Positions 35,617-47,119 of a stretch of DNA of 64,000 nt are shown piece by piece. The notes beneath the pieces are model-generated. The model saw only the letters and a list, made by a program, of their open reading frames with translations, did not search any database and had not been told where the DNA came from. The number at the start of each line of letters is the position of its first letter. Positions within the stretch are counted from its first letter, which is position 1. Made by a program: the position numbers and the translations under genes. The DNA is from a virus (lineage: Duplodnaviria; Caudoviricetes), in the IMG/VR virus record IMGVR_UViG_3300010885_031309; one strand, given 5' to 3'.

Positions 35617-36528
35617 GTGATGGCTGTCTGGTTCGCAAGTATTTATAACGAGGAGATTCACATGAATTATAAATCACCACTGTGCTCATGTATAGCATGT
35701 CACGAAATAAAGTCCGCTAAAGGAATAAATTGTCATTTTTTGACTATGCACACTGATGCAGAAACTAAAAAACGTCTGGTAGGACGAGAGAATAAAAAAT
35801 CTCCAAACATGTCCAAACAGAAAGAAAAATGTGAACAAGACAGATTAGTATCATTTGAGAGATATCTGATATCTCCTAATCAATGTAAGTGTTGTAATGC
35901 GATATTATCGTATGATAAAAGAAAACAGAAATTTTGTGGACGTTCTTGTTCCGCATCTTATAACAATTCTAATCGTGATGAAACGATTAAAAATAAAACG
36001 ATAGCGACTTTGAAAAATACTATCGCCACAAAATCTCAAATTAAAAATCAATTTGGAGTTTTTAATAGACGCACATCGTTTACTCCAGATGGTCCATACA
36101 CTAAAATTTACTTATGTATATGTAAATATTCTGGGCAGAAATTTTATTCTGCAACTGTAAAAACCGTTCATCCAAATTTGACTATCTCTAAAGAAAGATA
36201 CAATTATGCCTGCAAATTTACATTTGGAATATCAAATTACACAGAATGGTTCTCTACTGCAAGCGAACTGATAAGAAAACACGGATGGTATTCCACTCCT
36301 GGTTCACGCAAAGGAACAACAAATTTAAATGGAATCAGCAGAGATCATCTTTATTCGGTGCATGATGGCTGGATAAATTCTGTTCCACCGCACATATTAC
36401 GTCATCCTGCAAATTGCAATTTAGTCACTCATAAAGAGAATCAATCAAAGAACAGAAAATCTAAAATAACTCTATATGAACTTTATGAGCGTATAGAAAG
36501 ATTTAACAGAATTTATGGCGAGAGGTGA
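35617..36528 (+). mobile_element. HNH-type endonuclease with zinc-finger repeats, antisense to tRNA operon (start probably MNYKS)
   Basis: RDHLYS...HPANC.LV.H.EN.SK; GATAAATA upstream. Confidence 0.75.
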
Positions 36529-36600
36529 GGGACTCGAACCCCCGTGGGTATTAACCGATGGTTTTGGAAACCATTGCAATCGCCGCTATGCGAACCTCTC
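36516..36600 (-). tRNA. tRNA with CCA (Trp) anticodon on a class II, long-variable-arm body
   Basis: ATGGT-TTCCAAA-ACCAT; variable GGT-TAAT-ACC hairpin; G73. Confidence 0.8.
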
Positions 36601-37037: not shown

Positions 37038-37111
37038 TGGTACCGAGTACTGGTTACGCTCCAGTGATTCACGATTATCAGTCGTGTATTTTACTATTAA
37101 ATTAACCCGGC
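37038..37111 (-). tRNA. tRNA-Ile(GAT)
   Basis: CACGA-CTGATAA-TCGTG. Confidence 0.9.
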
Positions 37112-37846
37112 AATGAATTCTTTTGATAAATTTTTTTCTAAGATAACAATTACTTTAACCTGATTCTGTTCTTGTGCTAGACGAATTTTTTCTGCATCCA
37201 ACTTTGCTTTGTAGTTGTTCTTAGGATCAAGATAAATCCCATGATCCACAAGATAGAAATCTGCAAAATAATTACGTCCATTGTATTTTAATGCCTTAGG
37301 ACGAATCCAACGAACATTCATTTCGGTGAGAATTTCAAAACATTTATATTCATAGGAACTTTGTAAAGTCGTTGAATTTCCAAATGAGTCAATAACTTTA
37401 TATTTTTTGCTTCTACCAGCATTTTCTCTATAACCGCCAAGCCCTCGTTCTTTGGCTTGCTTAGAACGTCTCTCACGTTCTGCACTAGTTATTTCTTTGG
37501 CTATTATTCTACCAGATTCATATCCATTTTTTAATTTTTCAGCACTTCTGCGAATGATGTGATTAGTTTCTTTTGTCTGACCTTTGTTCCAAGAAGTATG
37601 TCCAACGGAATAATTTTTGTAAACTCTGTCTTTGTTTTGAGGACAAGTTCTTGTATGCTGAGTGTGACTAATTTTATTTTTGCAAATTTTACCACAATAC
37701 GCGCAGTTTAGACTTATCGGATCTGAAATTTTATTCCAGATAATTTTGCCGCCCTTGATGATACAACGACTGTGGTGTTTAGATAAATTATTTGTCGTGA
37801 ATTCATCTTTACAATTTATACAACAGTATCTTACTTTATTGTTCAT
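37097..37846 (-). mobile_element. Putative PD-(D/E)xK-type homing endonuclease with zinc-finger N-terminus
   Basis: QSSYE...ADFYL...YLDPK; stop lies inside tRNA-Ile; GATAAATA upstream. Confidence 0.65.
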
Positions 37847-37873
37847 GAATATTCTCCTAATCTATTTATCACA

Positions 37874-37909
37874 GATAAAGAGAATGCTCTACCTTTGAGT
37901 TACGCGGGC
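37874..37909 (-). pseudogene. 5' half of a tRNA gene
   Basis: GCCCGCG-TA-ACTC-AAAGGTA-GAGC-A-TTCTC, then breaks off. Confidence 0.55.
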
Positions 37910-37920
37910 AATTATAAAAC

Positions 37921-37974
37921 AGGATGCTTATTTTTCAATTATAAGTTGAATTATAAGTTTGCTGAACGCATCCT
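37921..37974 (-). ncRNA. CAGC-bulge hairpin element E5 inside tRNA array
   Basis: AGGATGC-GTTCAGCAAA...GCATCCT. Confidence 0.7.
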
Positions 37975-37980
37975 AAAACT

Positions 37981-38076
37981 TGGACCGTCGAACAGGATTC
38001 GAACCTGCATCAGTATACAGTGATACCACTCCAAATTACCTTTGTTCTCGTTCGTAGCGAGAGAGGATACCGACGG
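37981..38076 (-). ncRNA. D-armless tRNA-like RNA with ACG anticodon-like loop
   Basis: 7-bp acceptor, canonical T arm, T73-CCA, TCTCG-CTACGAA-CGAGA, ~37 nt variable region. Confidence 0.7.
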
Positions 38077-38087
38077 ATTGTTATTAC

Positions 38088-38163
38088 TGGGCAGACGCTA
38101 CGGATACGAACCGTTCCCTACTCTTTCACGGAGAGTAATGCTTCCAACTACACCAAACGCTGC
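38088..38163 (-). tRNA. tRNA-His(GTG), imperfect (C33, bulged acceptor)
   Basis: ACTCT-CCGTGAA-AGAGT; G-1:C73. Confidence 0.78.
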
Positions 38164-38175
38164 ACTGAATTTTTT

Positions 38176-38250
38176 GGCGGTCTTAGGGGGTAACGATCCC
38201 CACTCTTACGGCGTGACAAGCCGTCGTGCGTCCATGAACACTTTAAGACC
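38176..38250 (-). tRNA. tRNA-Asp(GTC)
   Basis: ACGGC-TTGTCAC-GCCGT; G73. Confidence 0.92.
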
Positions 38251-38256
38251 TAAATT

Positions 38257-38535
38257 TGGTAGGACCAGCGAGGTTCGAACTCGCGACCAACGGATTAACT
38301 TACCACTATAGTTTTCACCACCAGATCGCTCTGTTTGTGGTCTGGACTATACCTTCATCATAGCATTTCTGCCTTAGATGCCCGCCGTCTAGTCTCTACA
38401 CGTTCCCATTACTGGGCTTCGCTCGGTATCGCCATTTTACAGGGTTCACCGAATTTGACGGGTTCTACTTACAAAATTTCTTTTGTAGCACTCCTATTTT
38501 AAAGTCCGCTGCTCTACCGGCTGAGCTATAGTCCC
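38257..38535 (-). tRNA. tRNA-Lys(TTT) with group I intron (38299-38501) at position 34/35
   Basis: GCGGA-CTT|TT-AA-TCCGT; P1 ACUU/GAGU; AAATTCGGTGAA, GTAGAGACTA, TAGTCC; terminal G. Confidence 0.9.
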
Positions 38536-38592
38536 TCTATCAAACAACAGAACACAGTGTAGCACTGTGTGTATTATTTGTCAAATATTTTG

Positions 38593-38677
38593 TGGTCGGA
38601 GTGGCAGGATTCGAACCTGCGATGCTTTCGCGCTAGCTCCCAAAGCTAGTGACTTGACCAGGCTAGCCTACACTCCG
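38593..38677 (-). tRNA. tRNA-Pro(TGG) with extra variable hairpin
   Basis: CTAGC-TTTGGGA-GCTAG; variable CGCGAAAGCATC. Confidence 0.88.
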
Positions 38678-38684
38678 AGTTGTT

Positions 38685-38760
38685 TGGTAGGAGATGACGA
38701 GTTCGAACCAACATCGTCCTCCTTGTAAGGGAGGTGCATAACCTCTCTGCTCAACTACCC
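38685..38760 (-). tRNA. tRNA-Val(TAC), degenerate or chimeric
   Basis: CCTCC-CTTACAA-GGAGG; mismatches in acceptor and T stems. Confidence 0.65.
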
Positions 38761-39278
38761 TTATATTCTCTTAAATAAGAATTTCTCTTAGTTACTTTTT
38801 TGTATCTACTACCTTTTCCCTTACTGCCAAAGTTTTCTGTTTGACTGTGACAGTTAGGACATAACAGTCTTAAATTATTGATATTGTTGTTATCACTATC
38901 TCCGTCAATATGATCTAATTGTAGCACAAGAGATTTATTATTCCAAGTATCTCCTTGCTCGCATTCAAAACATTTCTTATCAAATTTTTCAATAAGATAT
39001 TTCTTTAATGTATAAGAGGAATTACTCGTGCATTTATTAGATTCAATTCGTGGAATAGTTTCATTAATCCATTTGTACTTACCTTGACAAACGTTGTCAC
39101 AAAATTTGTTAATTTTGCTACGACCACTTAAATTCTCTTTACCGCAATGTAAACACGAATAGAATTTTGAATCTTTTTTTCTATCTATAAAAAAGCCTGT
39201 TTTGCGACTATGTGATCCAACATGACCACCATATTTTTGTCCAGAATCAAATGTTGCTCCGCAATGACAAATATACAT
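38751..39278 (-). mobile_element. HNH endonuclease
   Basis: LQLDHIDGDSDNN..NLRLLCPNCHSQT; stop inside tRNA-Val 5' end. Confidence 0.9.
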
Positions 39279-39388: not shown

Positions 39389-39477
39389 TGGTTGCGGAAC
39401 CTGGATTCGAACCAGGACAATGCATTAGATGTCTCAGGGTTATGAGCCCTGCGCTTTACCAATTAAACTATTCCGCT
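39389..39477 (-). tRNA. Initiator-type tRNA-fMet(CAT) with 18-nt variable region
   Basis: 1:72 mismatch, GGG/CCC anticodon stem, CTCATAA loop. Confidence 0.85.
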
Positions 39478-39620: not shown

Positions 39621-39980
39621 CTAGAGTAGCAGACTCTTTCGTCCACTCTCTAGAGCACACTTCATTGCAATTCCCAGCGCTGCGGCACATGGAAACCTAT
39701 TGCCACGTTTGAACTTGAAGCCATTTAGCGTAAACGGCTTAAGAACCTCATCGCCATTCCACCATCCACGTTGGACATAAATATACCCGTCACGTTCAAG
39801 AGACTCACGTAACTTGGTGAATTCTGGATGATCTATAGTACTGATCGCATAACTAGTATTTTCGTAGACTAGCGCATCTACTAATTCATCTGGCGTTAGT
39901 GTTTCTTTATTAGCAAAACGACTAAGACTAGTCTTTTGTGTAACACTAGTTAAATATTCTGATTCAATTGTAAAATTCAT
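39621..39980 (-). CDS. Hypothetical protein
   Basis: 119 aa with RBS. Confidence 0.6.
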   Translation of the reverse strand: MNFTIESEYLTSVTQKTSLSRFANKETLTPDELVDALVYENTSYAISTIDHPEFTKLRESLERDGYIYVQRGWWNGDEVLKPFTLNGFKFKRGNRFPCAAALGIAMKCALESGRKSLLL

Positions 39981-40222
39981 TACGATCTCCTAACATTTCT
40001 ATATACACCTGCTGACATACGATCTCCTTAATAAGAGGAGATTAGATTTTTTACAGCCGACGATTACCCTACACGGCATCATGAATAGTGTAGGCTTTAC
40101 CTGGCATATTTATAAGATAATTGCCAGCATCTAACGAAGGGTGTCTTACCACCCCAAACTAATATATAGTATAAGTATATTATTAATAAGACATATATCA
40201 GCATGTGTATATAGAAAACGAC

Positions 40223-40300
40223 TGGAGCACAGGGCCGGATTCGAACCGGCGGTTTTACGGTTTTGCAAACCGTTGCATTGGGCCTCTCTGCCACCTGTGC
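40223..40300 (-). tRNA. tRNA-Cys(GCA)
   Basis: ACGGT-TTGCAAA-ACCGT; T73. Confidence 0.92.
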
Positions 40301-40303
40301 GTT

Positions 40304-40380
40304 TGGTGGTGACGGGCAGGTTCGAACTGCCTTCATTCAGCCTTATGAGGGCTGCGTATTTCCACTAATACTACATCACC
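40304..40380 (-). tRNA. tRNA-Met(CAT), elongator-type (or Ile2)
   Basis: CAGCC-CTCATAA-GGCTG. Confidence 0.85.
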
Positions 40381-40396
40381 AAATATAAATAACAAC

Positions 40397-41018: not shown

Positions 41019-41106
41019 TGGTGGGGACTGAAGGAATCGAACCTAATTGCCGCCACTCTGCATATTATGGCAAGTGATTTACAGTCACCCGCAGAGAACA
41101 GCCCCC
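41019..41106 (-). ncRNA. D-armless tRNA-Tyr(GTA)-like RNA
   Basis: 8-bp acceptor, GGTGA-CTGTAAA-TCACT, TTCGATT loop, A73-CCA; CTCTGC complementary to GCAGAG in variable region. Confidence 0.7.
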
Positions 41107-41114
41107 AAAATTCT

Positions 41115-46154: not shown

Positions 46155-46424
46155 TGGCTCCCTGTCGTGGGGTCGAACCACGGACCAACAGATTCCGGTT
46201 TGTGTGACTTTCGCCACTCCCTGGACTTTATCTTGACCATAGCATTTCTGCCTTAGGTCCCTGCCGTCAAGTCTCTACACGTTCCCGTTTCTGGGCTTCG
46301 CTCGGTATTGCCATATGCTTTCGCACTTAGGTTTCACCGAATTTGACAGGATTTTCAACTACTGTTTCCAATAGAAGTGTCCATTTCTAAACAGTCTGCT
46401 GCTCTACCTCTGAGCTAACAGGGA
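46155..46424 (-). tRNA. tRNA-Asn(GTT) with Azoarcus-type group IC3 intron (46195-46389) at position 36/37
   Basis: GCAGA-CTGTT|AA-TCTGT; intron ends GTCCAGGGAGTGGCGAAAGTCACACAAACCGG, matching the Azoarcus tRNA-Ile intron 3' end as I recall it. Confidence 0.92.
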
Positions 46425-46433
46425 ATTGATTTT

Positions 46434-47033
46434 TTAATAACTTTTTCCTTCAAGATATCGTTTCATTCTTAAATGTCTACCGTTTCCTTTGTTTTTTCCT
46501 TTATAAGTCGGCGTTTGACTATGACAATTAGGACAAAGCAAAGACAAATTACTAATTTCGTTGTTCGTGCTGTTTCCGTCTATATGCTCTAGTTCCATAA
46601 CTAGTTCTTTGCCGTTCCACTCCGTTATACCACAATTCCAGCATTTATTTCCGTATTTGTCTAAAAGAAATTTCTTCATCGTCTTTGAAGACGCAATCTT
46701 TTCTTCTATTTTTTGAAGAGACTGATAATCTTGCTGACACTTGATACTACAATATTTGTTCTTGTTTGCTCTATAATACAGAGTCGTCGTATTACAGAAT
46801 ATACAGTTAAAGAAACTTTTCTTTTTATCCTTGGCTAAATTATTAAATGTAGCAGAGCAGGAACTATTACAAAACGCTTTCTTTCTTTTGAAGTCATCAT
46901 AAGACAGTGAAGTATTACAATGTTTACACAATTTTGGAGATTTGTTATATGCTATCTCATTGGCTTCTTTTATTTTAGCCCATGTTTTAGCAGACTCAAC
47001 CGCTCCTAATTTTCCTGCTTCCGATCTATTCAT
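46434..47033 (-). mobile_element. HNH endonuclease
   Basis: MELEHIDGNSTNN..NLSLLCPNCHSQT; paralogous to 38751-39278. Confidence 0.9.
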
Positions 47034-47045
47034 AATTTTATCAAA

Positions 47046-47119
47046 TGGTTCCCCGTGACGGTTACGCTCCGCCGACTAATGCTTACAAGGCAATCGTTAT
47101 GCTATTTAACTAACGGGGA
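47046..47119 (-). tRNA. tRNA-Thr(TGT)
   Basis: ATTGC-CTTGTAA-GCATT; CCA. Confidence 0.85.

What the first reader, a model, noticed from the sequence alone, without database searches (positions are those of the whole stretch)
37981..38076. D-armless tRNA-like RNA with ACG loop and rearranged arms
Seen: perfect acceptor and T arms with encoded CCA, but only TATCCTC between acceptor and an Arg-type anticodon arm. TA(T)CCT can pair with AGGTA 3' of that arm, and the following segment holds a D-loop-like AGTGG and an ATCA/TGAT hairpin. U73 is atypical for Arg, and no canonical Arg(ACG) is in the window. Inference: a new tRNA architecture, or a decoy for anticodon nucleases, TadA or synthetases.
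Basis: partly seen in the sequence, partly recalled or inferred. Interest (0 to 1): 0.68.

Follow-up and report, generated by a model that had tools for sequence, protein, structure and literature searches.

The report
Rewired phage arginine tRNA (ACG)
This 96-base gene in a giant freshwater phage is very probably a working arginine tRNA whose core is wired differently from the textbook cloverleaf, one of at least 80 such arginine and isoleucine tRNA genes in phages that tRNA finders miss and that I found described in no paper.

Summary
On the minus strand, 38076-37981 has a perfect 7-bp acceptor stem, a canonical T arm, encoded CCA and an Arg(ACG) anticodon arm, but no D arm. ARAGORN and Rfam do not call it.

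It is not a decayed pseudogene. I collected 26 distinct close homologues from Xanthomonas phages X1 and BUDD, Stenotrophomonas phage DLP_6 and uncultured phage contigs. A wider search gave 80 distinct members with anticodons for Arg (ACG, UCU, UCG, CCU, CCG, GCG) and Ile (GAU, UAU, CAU) only.

Covariation supports all the helices, including a new 3-bp helix, here called P. It pairs the strand after U8-A9 with the three bases just before a D-loop-like "UAR..GGA" segment that lies 3' of the anticodon arm. The 15-48 Levitt pair covaries. A20, the main ArgRS determinant, is kept in 66 of 67 Arg members. The Ile members have U20 and A73.

Best reading (about 0.72): a functional decoder tRNA-Arg, probably edited to ICG, in which the D stem is replaced by a helix that closes around the anticodon arm.

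There is no expression or charging evidence. Why the core is rewired is unknown. Earlier notes of this scan describe the UCU branch of the same family on other phage DNA.

The parts
38070..38076 (-). Acceptor stem, 5' strand (CCGUCGG)
   Evidence: Pairs 7/7 with 37985-37991. All 7 pairs show compensatory changes across homologues.
38067..38069 (-). U8, A9 and a variable unpaired base (position 10)
   Evidence: U8 and A9 are invariant in all 80 members. Position 10 takes all four bases with no covarying partner (read by eye).
38064..38066 (-). P helix, 5' strand (CCU). It takes the place of the D-stem 5' strand.
   Evidence: Pairs with AGG at 38039-38041. Family-wide covariation is shown. Most ACG members have CCC, giving a C.A mismatch at the third pair. 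The window copy has U-A.
38046..38062 (-). Anticodon arm: stem UCUCG/CGAGA and loop CUACGAA. The anticodon ACG is at 38055-38053.
   Evidence: All 5 stem pairs show changes on both sides. The loop has U33 and a purine at 37, and I recall it as identical to the E. coli tRNA-Arg(ACG) loop (own knowledge).
38042..38045 (-). ACAA linker between the anticodon stem and P 3' strand. Together with C at 38063 it forms an asymmetric internal loop.
   Evidence: Invariant in the ACG branch. It is replaced by UAA, UAU and similar in the UCU branch.
38039..38041 (-). P helix, 3' strand (AGG)
   Evidence: In 55 of 82 scanner hits (80 true members), the three bases just 5' of 'UAR' are fully complementary to the strand after A9. 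Permuted sets give 16.4 +/- 3.2. On A3, 96% of cells are paired against 67% in shuffles, with 0 of 500 shuffles reaching the observed value.
38030..38038 (-). D-loop-like segment UAA-UUU-GGA. I read it as the A14, A15, G18, G19 and A20 equivalents.
   Evidence: UAR..GG was required by the scanner that defined the set of 80, so its presence there is not evidence; GUAA is conserved in the motif-independent cmsearch hits. R15 covaries with the base before the T stem. The base after GG is A in 66 of 67 Arg members and U in 8 of 11 Ile members.
38013..38026 (-). Extra variable-arm hairpin GUAU-CACUGU-AUAC
   Evidence: It covaries in X1, BUDD, DLP_6 and metagenomic copies. It is absent from the 80-84-nt short members. 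The window's Trp, Pro and Met tRNAs carry similar extra hairpins.
38009..38012 (-). UGAU, the end of the variable region. The final U is the U48 equivalent.
   Evidence: The A15-U48 / G15-C48 pairing holds in 78 of 82 scanner hits and in 100% of cells on A4.
37992..38008 (-). T arm GCAGG-UUCGAAU-CCUGU
   Evidence: The T loop is canonical (GUUCGA). The stem covaries.
37981..37991 (-). Acceptor 3' strand UCGACGG, discriminator U73 and encoded CCA
   Evidence: Whether family members encode CCA follows the neighbouring canonical tRNA genes: 40 of 41 where neighbours encode it, and 27 of 27 where they do not.

Best explanation
This is a functional elongator tRNA-Arg(ACG) of the phage. It is transcribed within the minus-strand tRNA array, 13 nt downstream of tRNA-His.

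My proposed pathway has these steps:
1. RNase P and 3' processing mature it like its neighbours.
2. The host ArgRS charges it through A20, C35 and G36.
3. Host TadA, which needs only the anticodon stem-loop, deaminates A34 to inosine.
4. It then reads CGU, CGC and CGA.

Its core differs from the cloverleaf. There is no D hairpin between the acceptor and anticodon arms. Instead, the strand after U8-A9 (CCU) pairs with AGG on the far side of the anticodon arm. This 3-bp helix P closes around the anticodon arm and presumably stacks on it, giving one long limb.

The D-loop equivalent (UAA..GGA) follows P on the 3' side. From there it can still dock its GG on the T loop and form the 15-48 pair, so an L-like shape is kept. 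The GUAU/AUAC hairpin is an added variable arm.

Shown here: the conserved family, the helices, P, the 15-48 covariation, and the identity-element pattern.

Inferred only: folding into an L shape, charging, I34 formation, decoding, and any selective reason for the rewiring.
For: **Conservation**
- There are 26 distinct ACG-branch homologues and 80 distinct family members from an unbiased scan.

**Covariation**
- Acceptor, anticodon and T stems covary (97.9% of cells paired against 67.6% in shuffles, with 0 of 500 shuffles as high; searches agree).
- The P helix shows CGA/UCG, CGG/CCG, CAG/CUG, CAC/GUG, CCG/CGG, CUC/GAG, CGU/ACG and CCU/AGG. In one search, 55 of 82 scanner hits are perfect, against 16.4 +/- 3.2 when permuted. 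In one search, 96% are paired against 67%, with 0 of 500 shuffles as high.
- The Levitt pair is A-U in 60 and G-C in 18 of 82 scanner hits.

**Identity elements**
- The base after GG is A in 66 of 67 Arg members and U in 8 of 11 Ile and 2 of 2 CAU members. Position 73 is A in 13 of 13 Ile/CAU members.
- This matches the bacterial identity sets in PMC9976931: Arg needs A20, C35 and U/G36; Ile needs A73, U20, A35 and U36.
- Only Arg and Ile-type anticodons occur, all in 7-nt loops with U33 and R37 (U33 and R37 were scan criteria).

**Behaviour like a tRNA gene**
- It sits in tRNA arrays.
- CCA encoding is concordant with neighbouring tRNA genes (Fisher p = 4e-18, not corrected for relatedness).

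**Fills a decoding gap**
- None of 35 loci with a rewired ACG gene also holds a canonical ACG gene, while 10 of 33 other loci do.
- The complete X1 genome has only Arg(UCU) among its canonical Arg tRNAs.
- The window has only Arg(UCU). Its long ORFs use CGU, CGC and CGA for 57% of Arg codons and AGA for 36%.

**Plausibility**
- E. coli HisRS, EF-Tu and the ribosome accept an engineered D-arm-less tRNA without adaptation (PMC11551756).
Against: - There is no expression, processing, charging or modification data.
- DLP_6 carries a canonical tRNA-Arg(ACG) at 112740-112816 as well as the rewired one. The rewired gene is therefore not always the sole ACG decoder, and the locus-level exclusivity is limited by locus size.
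- Nearest-neighbour thermodynamics does not favour the proposed fold for this copy: -20.3 kcal/mol against an MFE of -26.7 kcal/mol, with a z-score of only -1.16.
- In the ACG branch the third P pair is usually a C.A mismatch, and P is only 2-3 bp long.
- The UA/UA flanks and the ACAA linker never vary, so their roles are untested.
- The sequences are related, so the shuffle statistics overstate independence.
Confidence: 0.72

Rival explanations
1. It is a tRNA mimic that does not decode. It would act as a decoy or sponge, displaying an Arg anticodon stem-loop on a tRNA-like body. That body would soak up a host anticodon nuclease, TadA or ArgRS, or would survive a nuclease that destroys normal tRNA-Arg without itself being used by the ribosome.
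For: The anticodon loop CUACGAA is invariant in most ACG members. The core is non-canonical and might be a poor ribosome or EF-Tu substrate. DLP_6 has a canonical ACG tRNA as well, so the rewired gene is not needed there just to fill a gap. Phage tRNAs are known counter-measures to tRNA-targeting defence (own knowledge).
Against: The same body carries nine different anticodons for two amino acids. A20 in Arg members versus U20 and A73 in Ile members track the anticodon as aminoacylation identity requires. The acceptor stem, discriminator and CCA regime are kept like those of real tRNAs. X1 and the window have no other CGN decoder. A TadA-specific decoy cannot explain the UCU, UCG or GAU members.
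Confidence: 0.12
2. It is a charged tRNA-like RNA used outside ribosomal decoding. Examples would be an aminoacyl donor, a processing or punctuation signal in the tRNA-array transcript, or a regulator of the array.
For: It sits inside a long polycistronic tRNA and small-RNA region with HNH endonuclease genes and introns. Non-decoding tRNA-like RNAs exist in bacteria, for example the cell-wall tRNA-Gly species (own knowledge).
Against: Strict conservation of anticodon-loop architecture and of codon-appropriate anticodons is not needed for punctuation or donor roles. The T loop is fully canonical, unlike the non-ribosomal tRNA-Gly species. The Arg codon usage of the window matches the two encoded Arg anticodons.
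Confidence: 0.08
3. It is a decayed pseudo-tRNA, or a chance tRNA-like sequence left by rearrangement, for instance through homing-endonuclease activity in the cluster.
For: The D arm is missing, tRNA finders reject it, and HNH endonuclease genes are nearby. One relative, L260, is truncated after the D-loop-like segment.
Against: There are at least 80 distinct conserved members with compensatory changes in every helix and with the linkers under strong constraint.
Confidence: 0.02
4. It is an ordinary cloverleaf after all. In this reading the strand after U8-A9 pairs in the classical order with bases that follow the GG segment, and the anticodon-like hairpin is merely an insertion.
For: In the UCU branch a conserved YUG after GGA is 78% complementary to the strand after A9.
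Against: That pairing shows no covariation: 139 of 500 shuffles do as well. The P pairing in the same sequences does covary, with 0 of 500 shuffles as high. Several members have no complementary bases after GGA at all, for example L016:3852-3927, L010:3987-4059 and L012:3022-3100.
Confidence: 0.03

Closest known systems
Canonical bacterial and phage tRNA-Arg(ACG), e.g. E. coli argQVYZ or the canonical copy in phage DLP_6 (KU682439.2:112740-112816)
   Same: It has a 7-bp acceptor stem, a 5-bp anticodon stem with the loop CUACGAA, a canonical T arm, U8, A9, GG-A20, an R15-Y48 pair, encoded CCA, and a place in a tRNA array.
   Different: There is no D hairpin 5' of the anticodon arm. The strand after A9 pairs across the anticodon arm instead, forming helix P. 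The D-loop-like segment lies 3' of the anticodon arm. A 14-nt variable hairpin is present. Rfam RF00005 and ARAGORN fail to detect it.
Metazoan mitochondrial D-armless tRNA-Ser(AGY) (PMC4013460, PMC9427863) and the engineered D-arm-less 'mini HisT' (PMC11551756)
   Same: There is no D hairpin, and a short connector joins the acceptor stem to the anticodon arm. These are precedents showing that translation can use such tRNAs.
   Different: As I recall, and untested here, the mitochondrial tRNAs have lost the D-loop/T-loop interaction and have degenerate T loops. This family keeps a GG segment, the 15-48 pair and a canonical T loop, and adds a covarying helix that closes around the anticodon arm. 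It occurs in phages of bacteria rather than in organelles, and for Arg and Ile rather than Ser.
The 'rewired' phage tRNA-Arg(UCU) noted earlier in this scan (Felix O1-like phages; notes e1-232865, e1-241338, e1-124062)
   Same: The architecture is the same. I found the UCU branch independently in the same metagenomic tRNA clusters and in Caulobacter and Brevundimonas phages.
   Different: This is the ACG branch. It has an invariant ACAA-AGG-UAA segment, usually a C.A mismatch in P, A34 (a presumed TadA substrate), and in this lineage an extra variable arm. I did not check Felix O1 itself.
Class II tRNAs (Leu, Ser, Tyr) and tRNA-Sec
   Same: There is a hairpin between the anticodon arm and the T arm.
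   Different: Class II tRNAs keep a normal D arm. Here most of the long inter-arm segment is the displaced D-loop equivalent plus one strand of helix P.

Membership tests
Canonical tRNA (Rfam RF00005 / cloverleaf) | [quoted passage not shown] | tested here: not met
   Only 7 nt (UAUCCUC) separate the two arms. There is no RF00005 hit even at E<=10 and no ARAGORN call. Only 5 of 98 family genes are overlapped by any ARAGORN call, three of them with a wrong or undetermined identity.
Canonical tRNA (Rfam RF00005 / cloverleaf) | 7-bp acceptor stem, 5-bp T stem with a GTTCRA loop, and a 7-nt anticodon loop with U33 and R37 | tested here: met
Canonical tRNA (Rfam RF00005 / cloverleaf) | Tertiary-interaction bases U8, A14, R15-Y48 and G18-G19 | tested here: inconclusive
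   Sequence equivalents are present, and R15-Y48 covaries. Their three-dimensional roles cannot be tested with these tools.
Rewired phage tRNA-Arg/Ile family (defined here and in earlier scan notes) | A 3-bp helix between the strand after U8-A9-N and the three bases immediately 5' of UAR, enclosing the anticodon arm | tested here: met
   The window has CCU with AGG. Family covariation is shown.
Rewired phage tRNA-Arg/Ile family (defined here and in earlier scan notes) | A UAR-(0-3 nt)-GG-N20 segment 3' of the anticodon arm, followed by Y48 and a canonical T arm | tested here: met
   The window has UAA-UUU-GGA ... U, then GCAGG. The covariance model built on the ACG branch scores 82.4 bits, but the window is a seed of that model, so it matches by construction.
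Bacterial tRNA-Arg identity | A20, C35 and G/U36 (PMC9976931) | tested here: met
   GGA and the anticodon ACG are present. The A after GG is kept in 66 of 67 Arg members.
Bacterial tRNA-Arg identity | Aminoacylation by ArgRS, and A34-to-I34 editing by TadA | not testable with these tools
   No charging or modification data exist.
Mitochondrial-type D-armless tRNA | Loss of the D-loop/T-loop elbow (no GG segment, degenerate T loop) | tested here: not met
   The GG segment and the canonical UUCGAAU T loop are retained.
tmRNA, viral tRNA-like structures, or other Rfam families | A match to a curated covariance model | tested here: not met
   No family matches 37981-38076 at E<=10. The ARAGORN 'tmRNA*' call at 39978-40396 overlaps two ordinary tRNA genes, so I take it to be spurious.

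The most novel reading that the evidence does not exclude
Phages of bacteria carry a whole class of working tRNAs, for Arg and Ile, that are not cloverleaves. In them the D stem is replaced by a helix of reversed connectivity that closes around the anticodon arm, and the D loop is moved to the 3' side. The bolder version adds that this rewiring was selected because it lets these tRNAs escape a host or phage factor that recognises the normal D arm of tRNA-Arg and tRNA-Ile. Such a factor could be a defence nuclease, a modification or quality-control enzyme, or the phage's own host-tRNA-destroying activity. The probability given is for the first part (a functional non-cloverleaf decoder class). 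I put the escape rationale at about 0.2.
Probability: 0.65. Interest if true: 0.88.

Novelty: new variant of a known kind. Interest (0 to 1): 0.8.

Why it matters
[quoted passage not shown] If this family is functional, it is a natural counter-example that bacterial ribosomes, EF-Tu, ArgRS, IleRS, RNase P and probably TadA all have to accept. The sequences supply a ready-made set of covarying natural variants for asking which parts of the tRNA core are really required.

There is also a practical consequence. Phage genome annotation misses these genes: only 5 of 98 are overlapped by an ARAGORN call, and they are unannotated in X1, BUDD, DLP_6 and the Caulobacter and Brevundimonas phages. Phage tRNA repertoires, codon-adaptation analyses and 'missing Arg tRNA' inferences are therefore biased.

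The restriction to Arg and Ile, with identity elements switching in step, gives a tractable case of tRNA identity change on an unusual scaffold.

Tried and rejected
1. **Genome-contig scan** (pattern CTACGAANNNNNACAAAGG).

2. **First wide viral scan** (ACAAAGGTAA...GTTCRA). It did reveal the first non-ACG members.

3. **Expression.** The one metatranscriptome run found (X24) has no contigs over 37960-38167. What it covers are conserved tRNA and intron parts at 85-95% identity, probably from other organisms. So there is no evidence on transcription either way. DNA run X1 reproduces 37595-38203 without a difference, but it may be the source sample.

4. **Classical-order D stem.** Pairing the strand after A9 with YUG after GGA shows no covariation.

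5. **Other pairings for the 5' linker.** I tried position 10 with the base before GG, and CCYC with GGAG. Neither shows consistent complementarity (by eye).

It is not conserved in X1, BUDD or DLP_6.

7. **Single-sequence folding**. The MFE structure does not form the T arm, and the z-score is -1.16, so it is uninformative.

8. **Neighbouring ORFs.** A Pfam scan found HNH endonucleases at 38751-39278 and, below Pfam's cut-off, at 46434-47033. Nothing matched the 249-aa ORF just downstream (37097-37846). No enzyme specific to this tRNA was identified.

9. **Literature.** Five full-text searches found no description of this architecture. Subscription-only papers are not covered.

Full report
**What is there**

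The finding lies on the minus strand, inside a long minus-strand tRNA array of an AT-rich (39% GC) phage-like window. The array has 17 ARAGORN tRNAs, two group I introns, and HNH endonuclease genes. The element starts 13 nt downstream of tRNA-His.

Read 5' to 3' from 38076 to 37981 it is:
- CCGUCGG
- UA
- U
- CCU
- C
- UCUCG-CUACGAA-CGAGA
- ACAA
- AGG
- UAA-UUU-GGA
- GUG
- GUAU-CACUGU-AUAC
- UGAU
- GCAGG-UUCGAAU-CCUGU
- UCGACGG
- U
- CCA

Neither ARAGORN nor Rfam, even at E<=10, reports anything here.

**It is conserved**

blastn against cultured phages found unannotated counterparts inside the tRNA clusters of three phages:
- Xanthomonas phage X1
- Xanthomonas phage BUDD
- Stenotrophomonas phage DLP_6

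Pattern scans of IMG/VR with the invariant motif gave more. In total I obtained 26 distinct sequences (alignment A1).

On these, 97.9% of stem cells pair, against 67.6% in shuffles, and 18 of 21 pairs show changes on both sides. The small hairpin in the long inter-arm segment also covaries: GUAU/AUAC, GUGU/GCAC, GCUC/GAGC and GCGA/UCGC.

**A wider family**

A covariance model of the ACG branch (R1) was searched over the fetched phage loci. It picked up intermediate-scoring genes of similar length with other anticodons. A further scan for the motif of a second branch added 46 loci.

I then wrote a scanner that requires only:
- acceptor closure
- U8-A9
- an anticodon hairpin within 3-9 nt
- a UAR..GG segment
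- a T arm

It imposes no requirement on any linker pairing. It found 80 distinct true members.

| Amino acid | Anticodon | Members |
|---|---|---|
| Arg | ACG | 27 |
| Arg | UCU | 27 |
| Arg | UCG | 8 |
| Arg | CCU | 3 |
| Arg | CCG | 1 |
| Arg | GCG | 1 |
| Ile | UAU | 7 |
| Ile | GAU | 4 |
| Ile2 or Met | CAU | 2 |

No other amino acid appears. Members of the UCU branch also occur, unannotated, in Caulobacter phages Ccr2, Ccr10 and Ccr29 and in Brevundimonas jumbo phages.

**The new helix**

Across this set, the three bases immediately 5' of 'UAR' are complementary to three bases shortly after U8-A9.
- Of the 82 scanner hits (80 true members), 55 are perfect. Permuting partners gives 16.4 +/- 3.2, with a maximum of 26 in 1000 permutations.
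- Sliding the triplet 1, 2 or 3 nt upstream gives only 8, 2 and 2 perfect matches.
- More than ten different complementary combinations occur.

On MAFFT alignments of the two length classes, the tool counts for this helix alone are 96% paired against 67% in shuffles. None of 500 shuffles reaches the observed value, and 28 cells show double changes against 7.4 expected (A3). The class containing the window gives consistent counts (A4).

In the ACG branch the third pair is usually C.A. The window copy has U-A.

The alternative, a classical-order D stem with bases after the GG, shows no covariation: 139 of 500 shuffles do as well.

So the strand that normally forms the 5' half of the D stem instead pairs across the anticodon arm. 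I call this helix P.

**The rest of the core is tRNA-like**

- After P comes U-A-R, then 0-3 nt, then G-G-N. The R covaries with the base just before the T stem: A with U in 60, G with C in 18, and other combinations in 4. On A4 every cell pairs. This is the signature of the 15-48 Levitt pair.
- The base after GG is A in 66 of 67 Arg members. It is U in 8 of 11 Ile members and in both CAU members.
- Position 73 is A in all 13 Ile/CAU members and is variable in Arg members.
- This is the pattern expected from bacterial identity rules, taken from PMC9976931. A20 is the main ArgRS determinant, together with C35 and G/U36. Ile uses A73, U20 and the anticodon.
- The same table lists U73 among bacterial Arg determinants, so the window's U73 is not a problem.

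**These genes behave like tRNA genes**

Whether a family member encodes CCA follows the habit of the canonical tRNA genes around it. Where the neighbours encode CCA, 40 of 41 members do. Where they do not, 27 of 27 members do not.

In the 35 loci holding a rewired ACG gene, no canonical ACG gene is present, whereas 10 of the 33 other loci have one. In the complete X1 genome all Rfam tRNA hits lie in one region, and its only canonical Arg tRNA is UCU. The window likewise has only Arg(UCU).

Long ORFs in the window use Arg codons as follows.

| Codon | Share of Arg codons |
|---|---|
| CGU | 29% |
| CGC | 15% |
| CGA | 12.5% |
| AGA | 36% |
| CGG | 4% |
| AGG | 3% |

An ICG tRNA plus the UCU tRNA would therefore cover 93% of the Arg codons.

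One caveat applies. DLP_6 has a canonical ACG tRNA about 1.2 kb from its rewired one, so the two can coexist.

**How it probably works**

Helix P, the asymmetric internal loop (C opposite ACAA) and the 5-bp anticodon stem would form one continuous limb. Its length is about that of the normal D-stem plus anticodon-stem stack.

The 5' strand of this limb runs straight on from U8-A9. The 3' strand leads into the D-loop equivalent, which can reach the T loop (GG with psi55-C56) and form the 15-48 pair before entering the T stem.

Compared with the cloverleaf, the anticodon arm and the D loop have swapped places relative to the short helix. All of this geometry is inference. Single-sequence thermodynamics does not favour the fold for this copy: -20.3 kcal/mol against an MFE of -26.7.

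The GUAU/AUAC hairpin is a variable arm. It is absent from the 80-84-nt members, and the window's Trp, Pro and Met tRNAs carry comparable extra hairpins.

Because TadA needs only the anticodon stem-loop (own knowledge), and the loop is identical to that of E. coli tRNA-Arg(ACG) as I recall it, I expect I34.

**What is not known**

Nothing here shows transcription, processing, charging or decoding. The only RNA run found does not cover the element. The reason for the rewiring is open. Escape from a factor that recognises the D arm is attractive but untested, and no specific partner gene was found nearby.

**Comparison and novelty**

The closest natural analogues are the mitochondrial D-armless tRNA-Ser(AGY) species. 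Those, as I recall, have lost the elbow interaction, whereas this family keeps its GG segment, its 15-48 pair and a canonical T loop.

An engineered D-arm-less tRNA is accepted by the E. coli translation machinery, and the same paper states that all known bacterial tRNAs are cloverleaves (PMC11551756). Five full-text searches found no description of this design.

After reaching this reading I consulted the scan's earlier notes. They describe the UCU branch in Felix O1-like phages as a 'rewired' arginine tRNA with the D arm rebuilt around the anticodon arm. My analysis agrees with them and adds:
- the ACG branch
- the Ile members
- the Levitt-pair and position-20 evidence
- the CCA concordance

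I rate this a new variant of a known kind, namely tRNA, and of high interest.

Noticed in passing
window 36516-36600 (Trp), 38593-38677 (Pro), 39389-39477 (Met), all minus strand: Three otherwise canonical class I tRNAs carry an extra hairpin in the variable region and are 85-89 nt long. Examples are GGU-UAAU-ACC in Trp and GACA...UGUC in Met. Long variable arms are normally restricted to Leu, Ser and Tyr in bacteria.
   Followed up: partly
window 41019-41107, minus strand: This is a second non-cloverleaf tRNA-like gene. It has an 8-bp acceptor stem, a Tyr(GUA) anticodon arm and A73-CCA. The strand after the acceptor stem (CUCUGC) is complementary to GCAGAG in the loop of a GCCA/UGGC hairpin 3' of the anticodon arm. 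Rfam gives only a weak tRNA-Sec hit of 24.5 bits. The wiring differs from that of the Arg/Ile family.
   Followed up: no
window 38261-38590 and 46202-46402, minus strand: Group I introns score 62.9 and 61.9 bits in Rfam. The first interrupts a tRNA whose exons rebuild a CUUUUAA loop, so it is Lys(UUU)-like. An HNH endonuclease ORF lies close by at 38751-39278, and an HNH-like ORF (below Pfam's cut-off) at 46434-47033.
   Followed up: partly
window 37041-37111 and 47049-47119, minus strand: Two tRNAs are found by Rfam but not by ARAGORN: Ile(GAU) and Thr(UGU), judged by their loops. Both have an unusual T loop, GCGUAAC, in place of UUCGAAU.
   Followed up: no
L260:2710-2782 (IMGVR_UViG_3300037780_000034, a 318-kb contig): This copy of the ACG-branch gene is intact through GGAUGGAAAU and then runs into AT-rich sequence with no T arm or acceptor 3' strand. 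It is either a truncated pseudogene or a gene interrupted by an insertion.
   Followed up: no
L080:6370-6465 and L127 (IMG/VR): These are 96-nt tRNA-like genes whose D loop reads ACAAAGGUAA inside an otherwise normal D arm, anticodon arm and T arm. About 22 extra bases lie between the acceptor 5' strand and U8. This is unexplained.
   Followed up: no
KU682439.2 (phage DLP_6) 111158-111250 and 112740-112816: DLP_6 encodes both the rewired and a canonical tRNA-Arg(ACG). It would be a natural system for comparing the two in one infection.
   Followed up: partly
L261:882-963 and 965-1056 (IMG/VR): Two rewired Arg genes, GCG and UCG, sit head to tail only 1 nt apart. This suggests that tandem duplication followed by an anticodon change is how the family diversifies.
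   Followed up: no
window 39978-40396: The ARAGORN 'tmRNA*' (permuted) call overlaps the ordinary tRNA-Cys and tRNA-Met genes and has no Rfam tmRNA support. It is very likely a false positive.
   Followed up: partly
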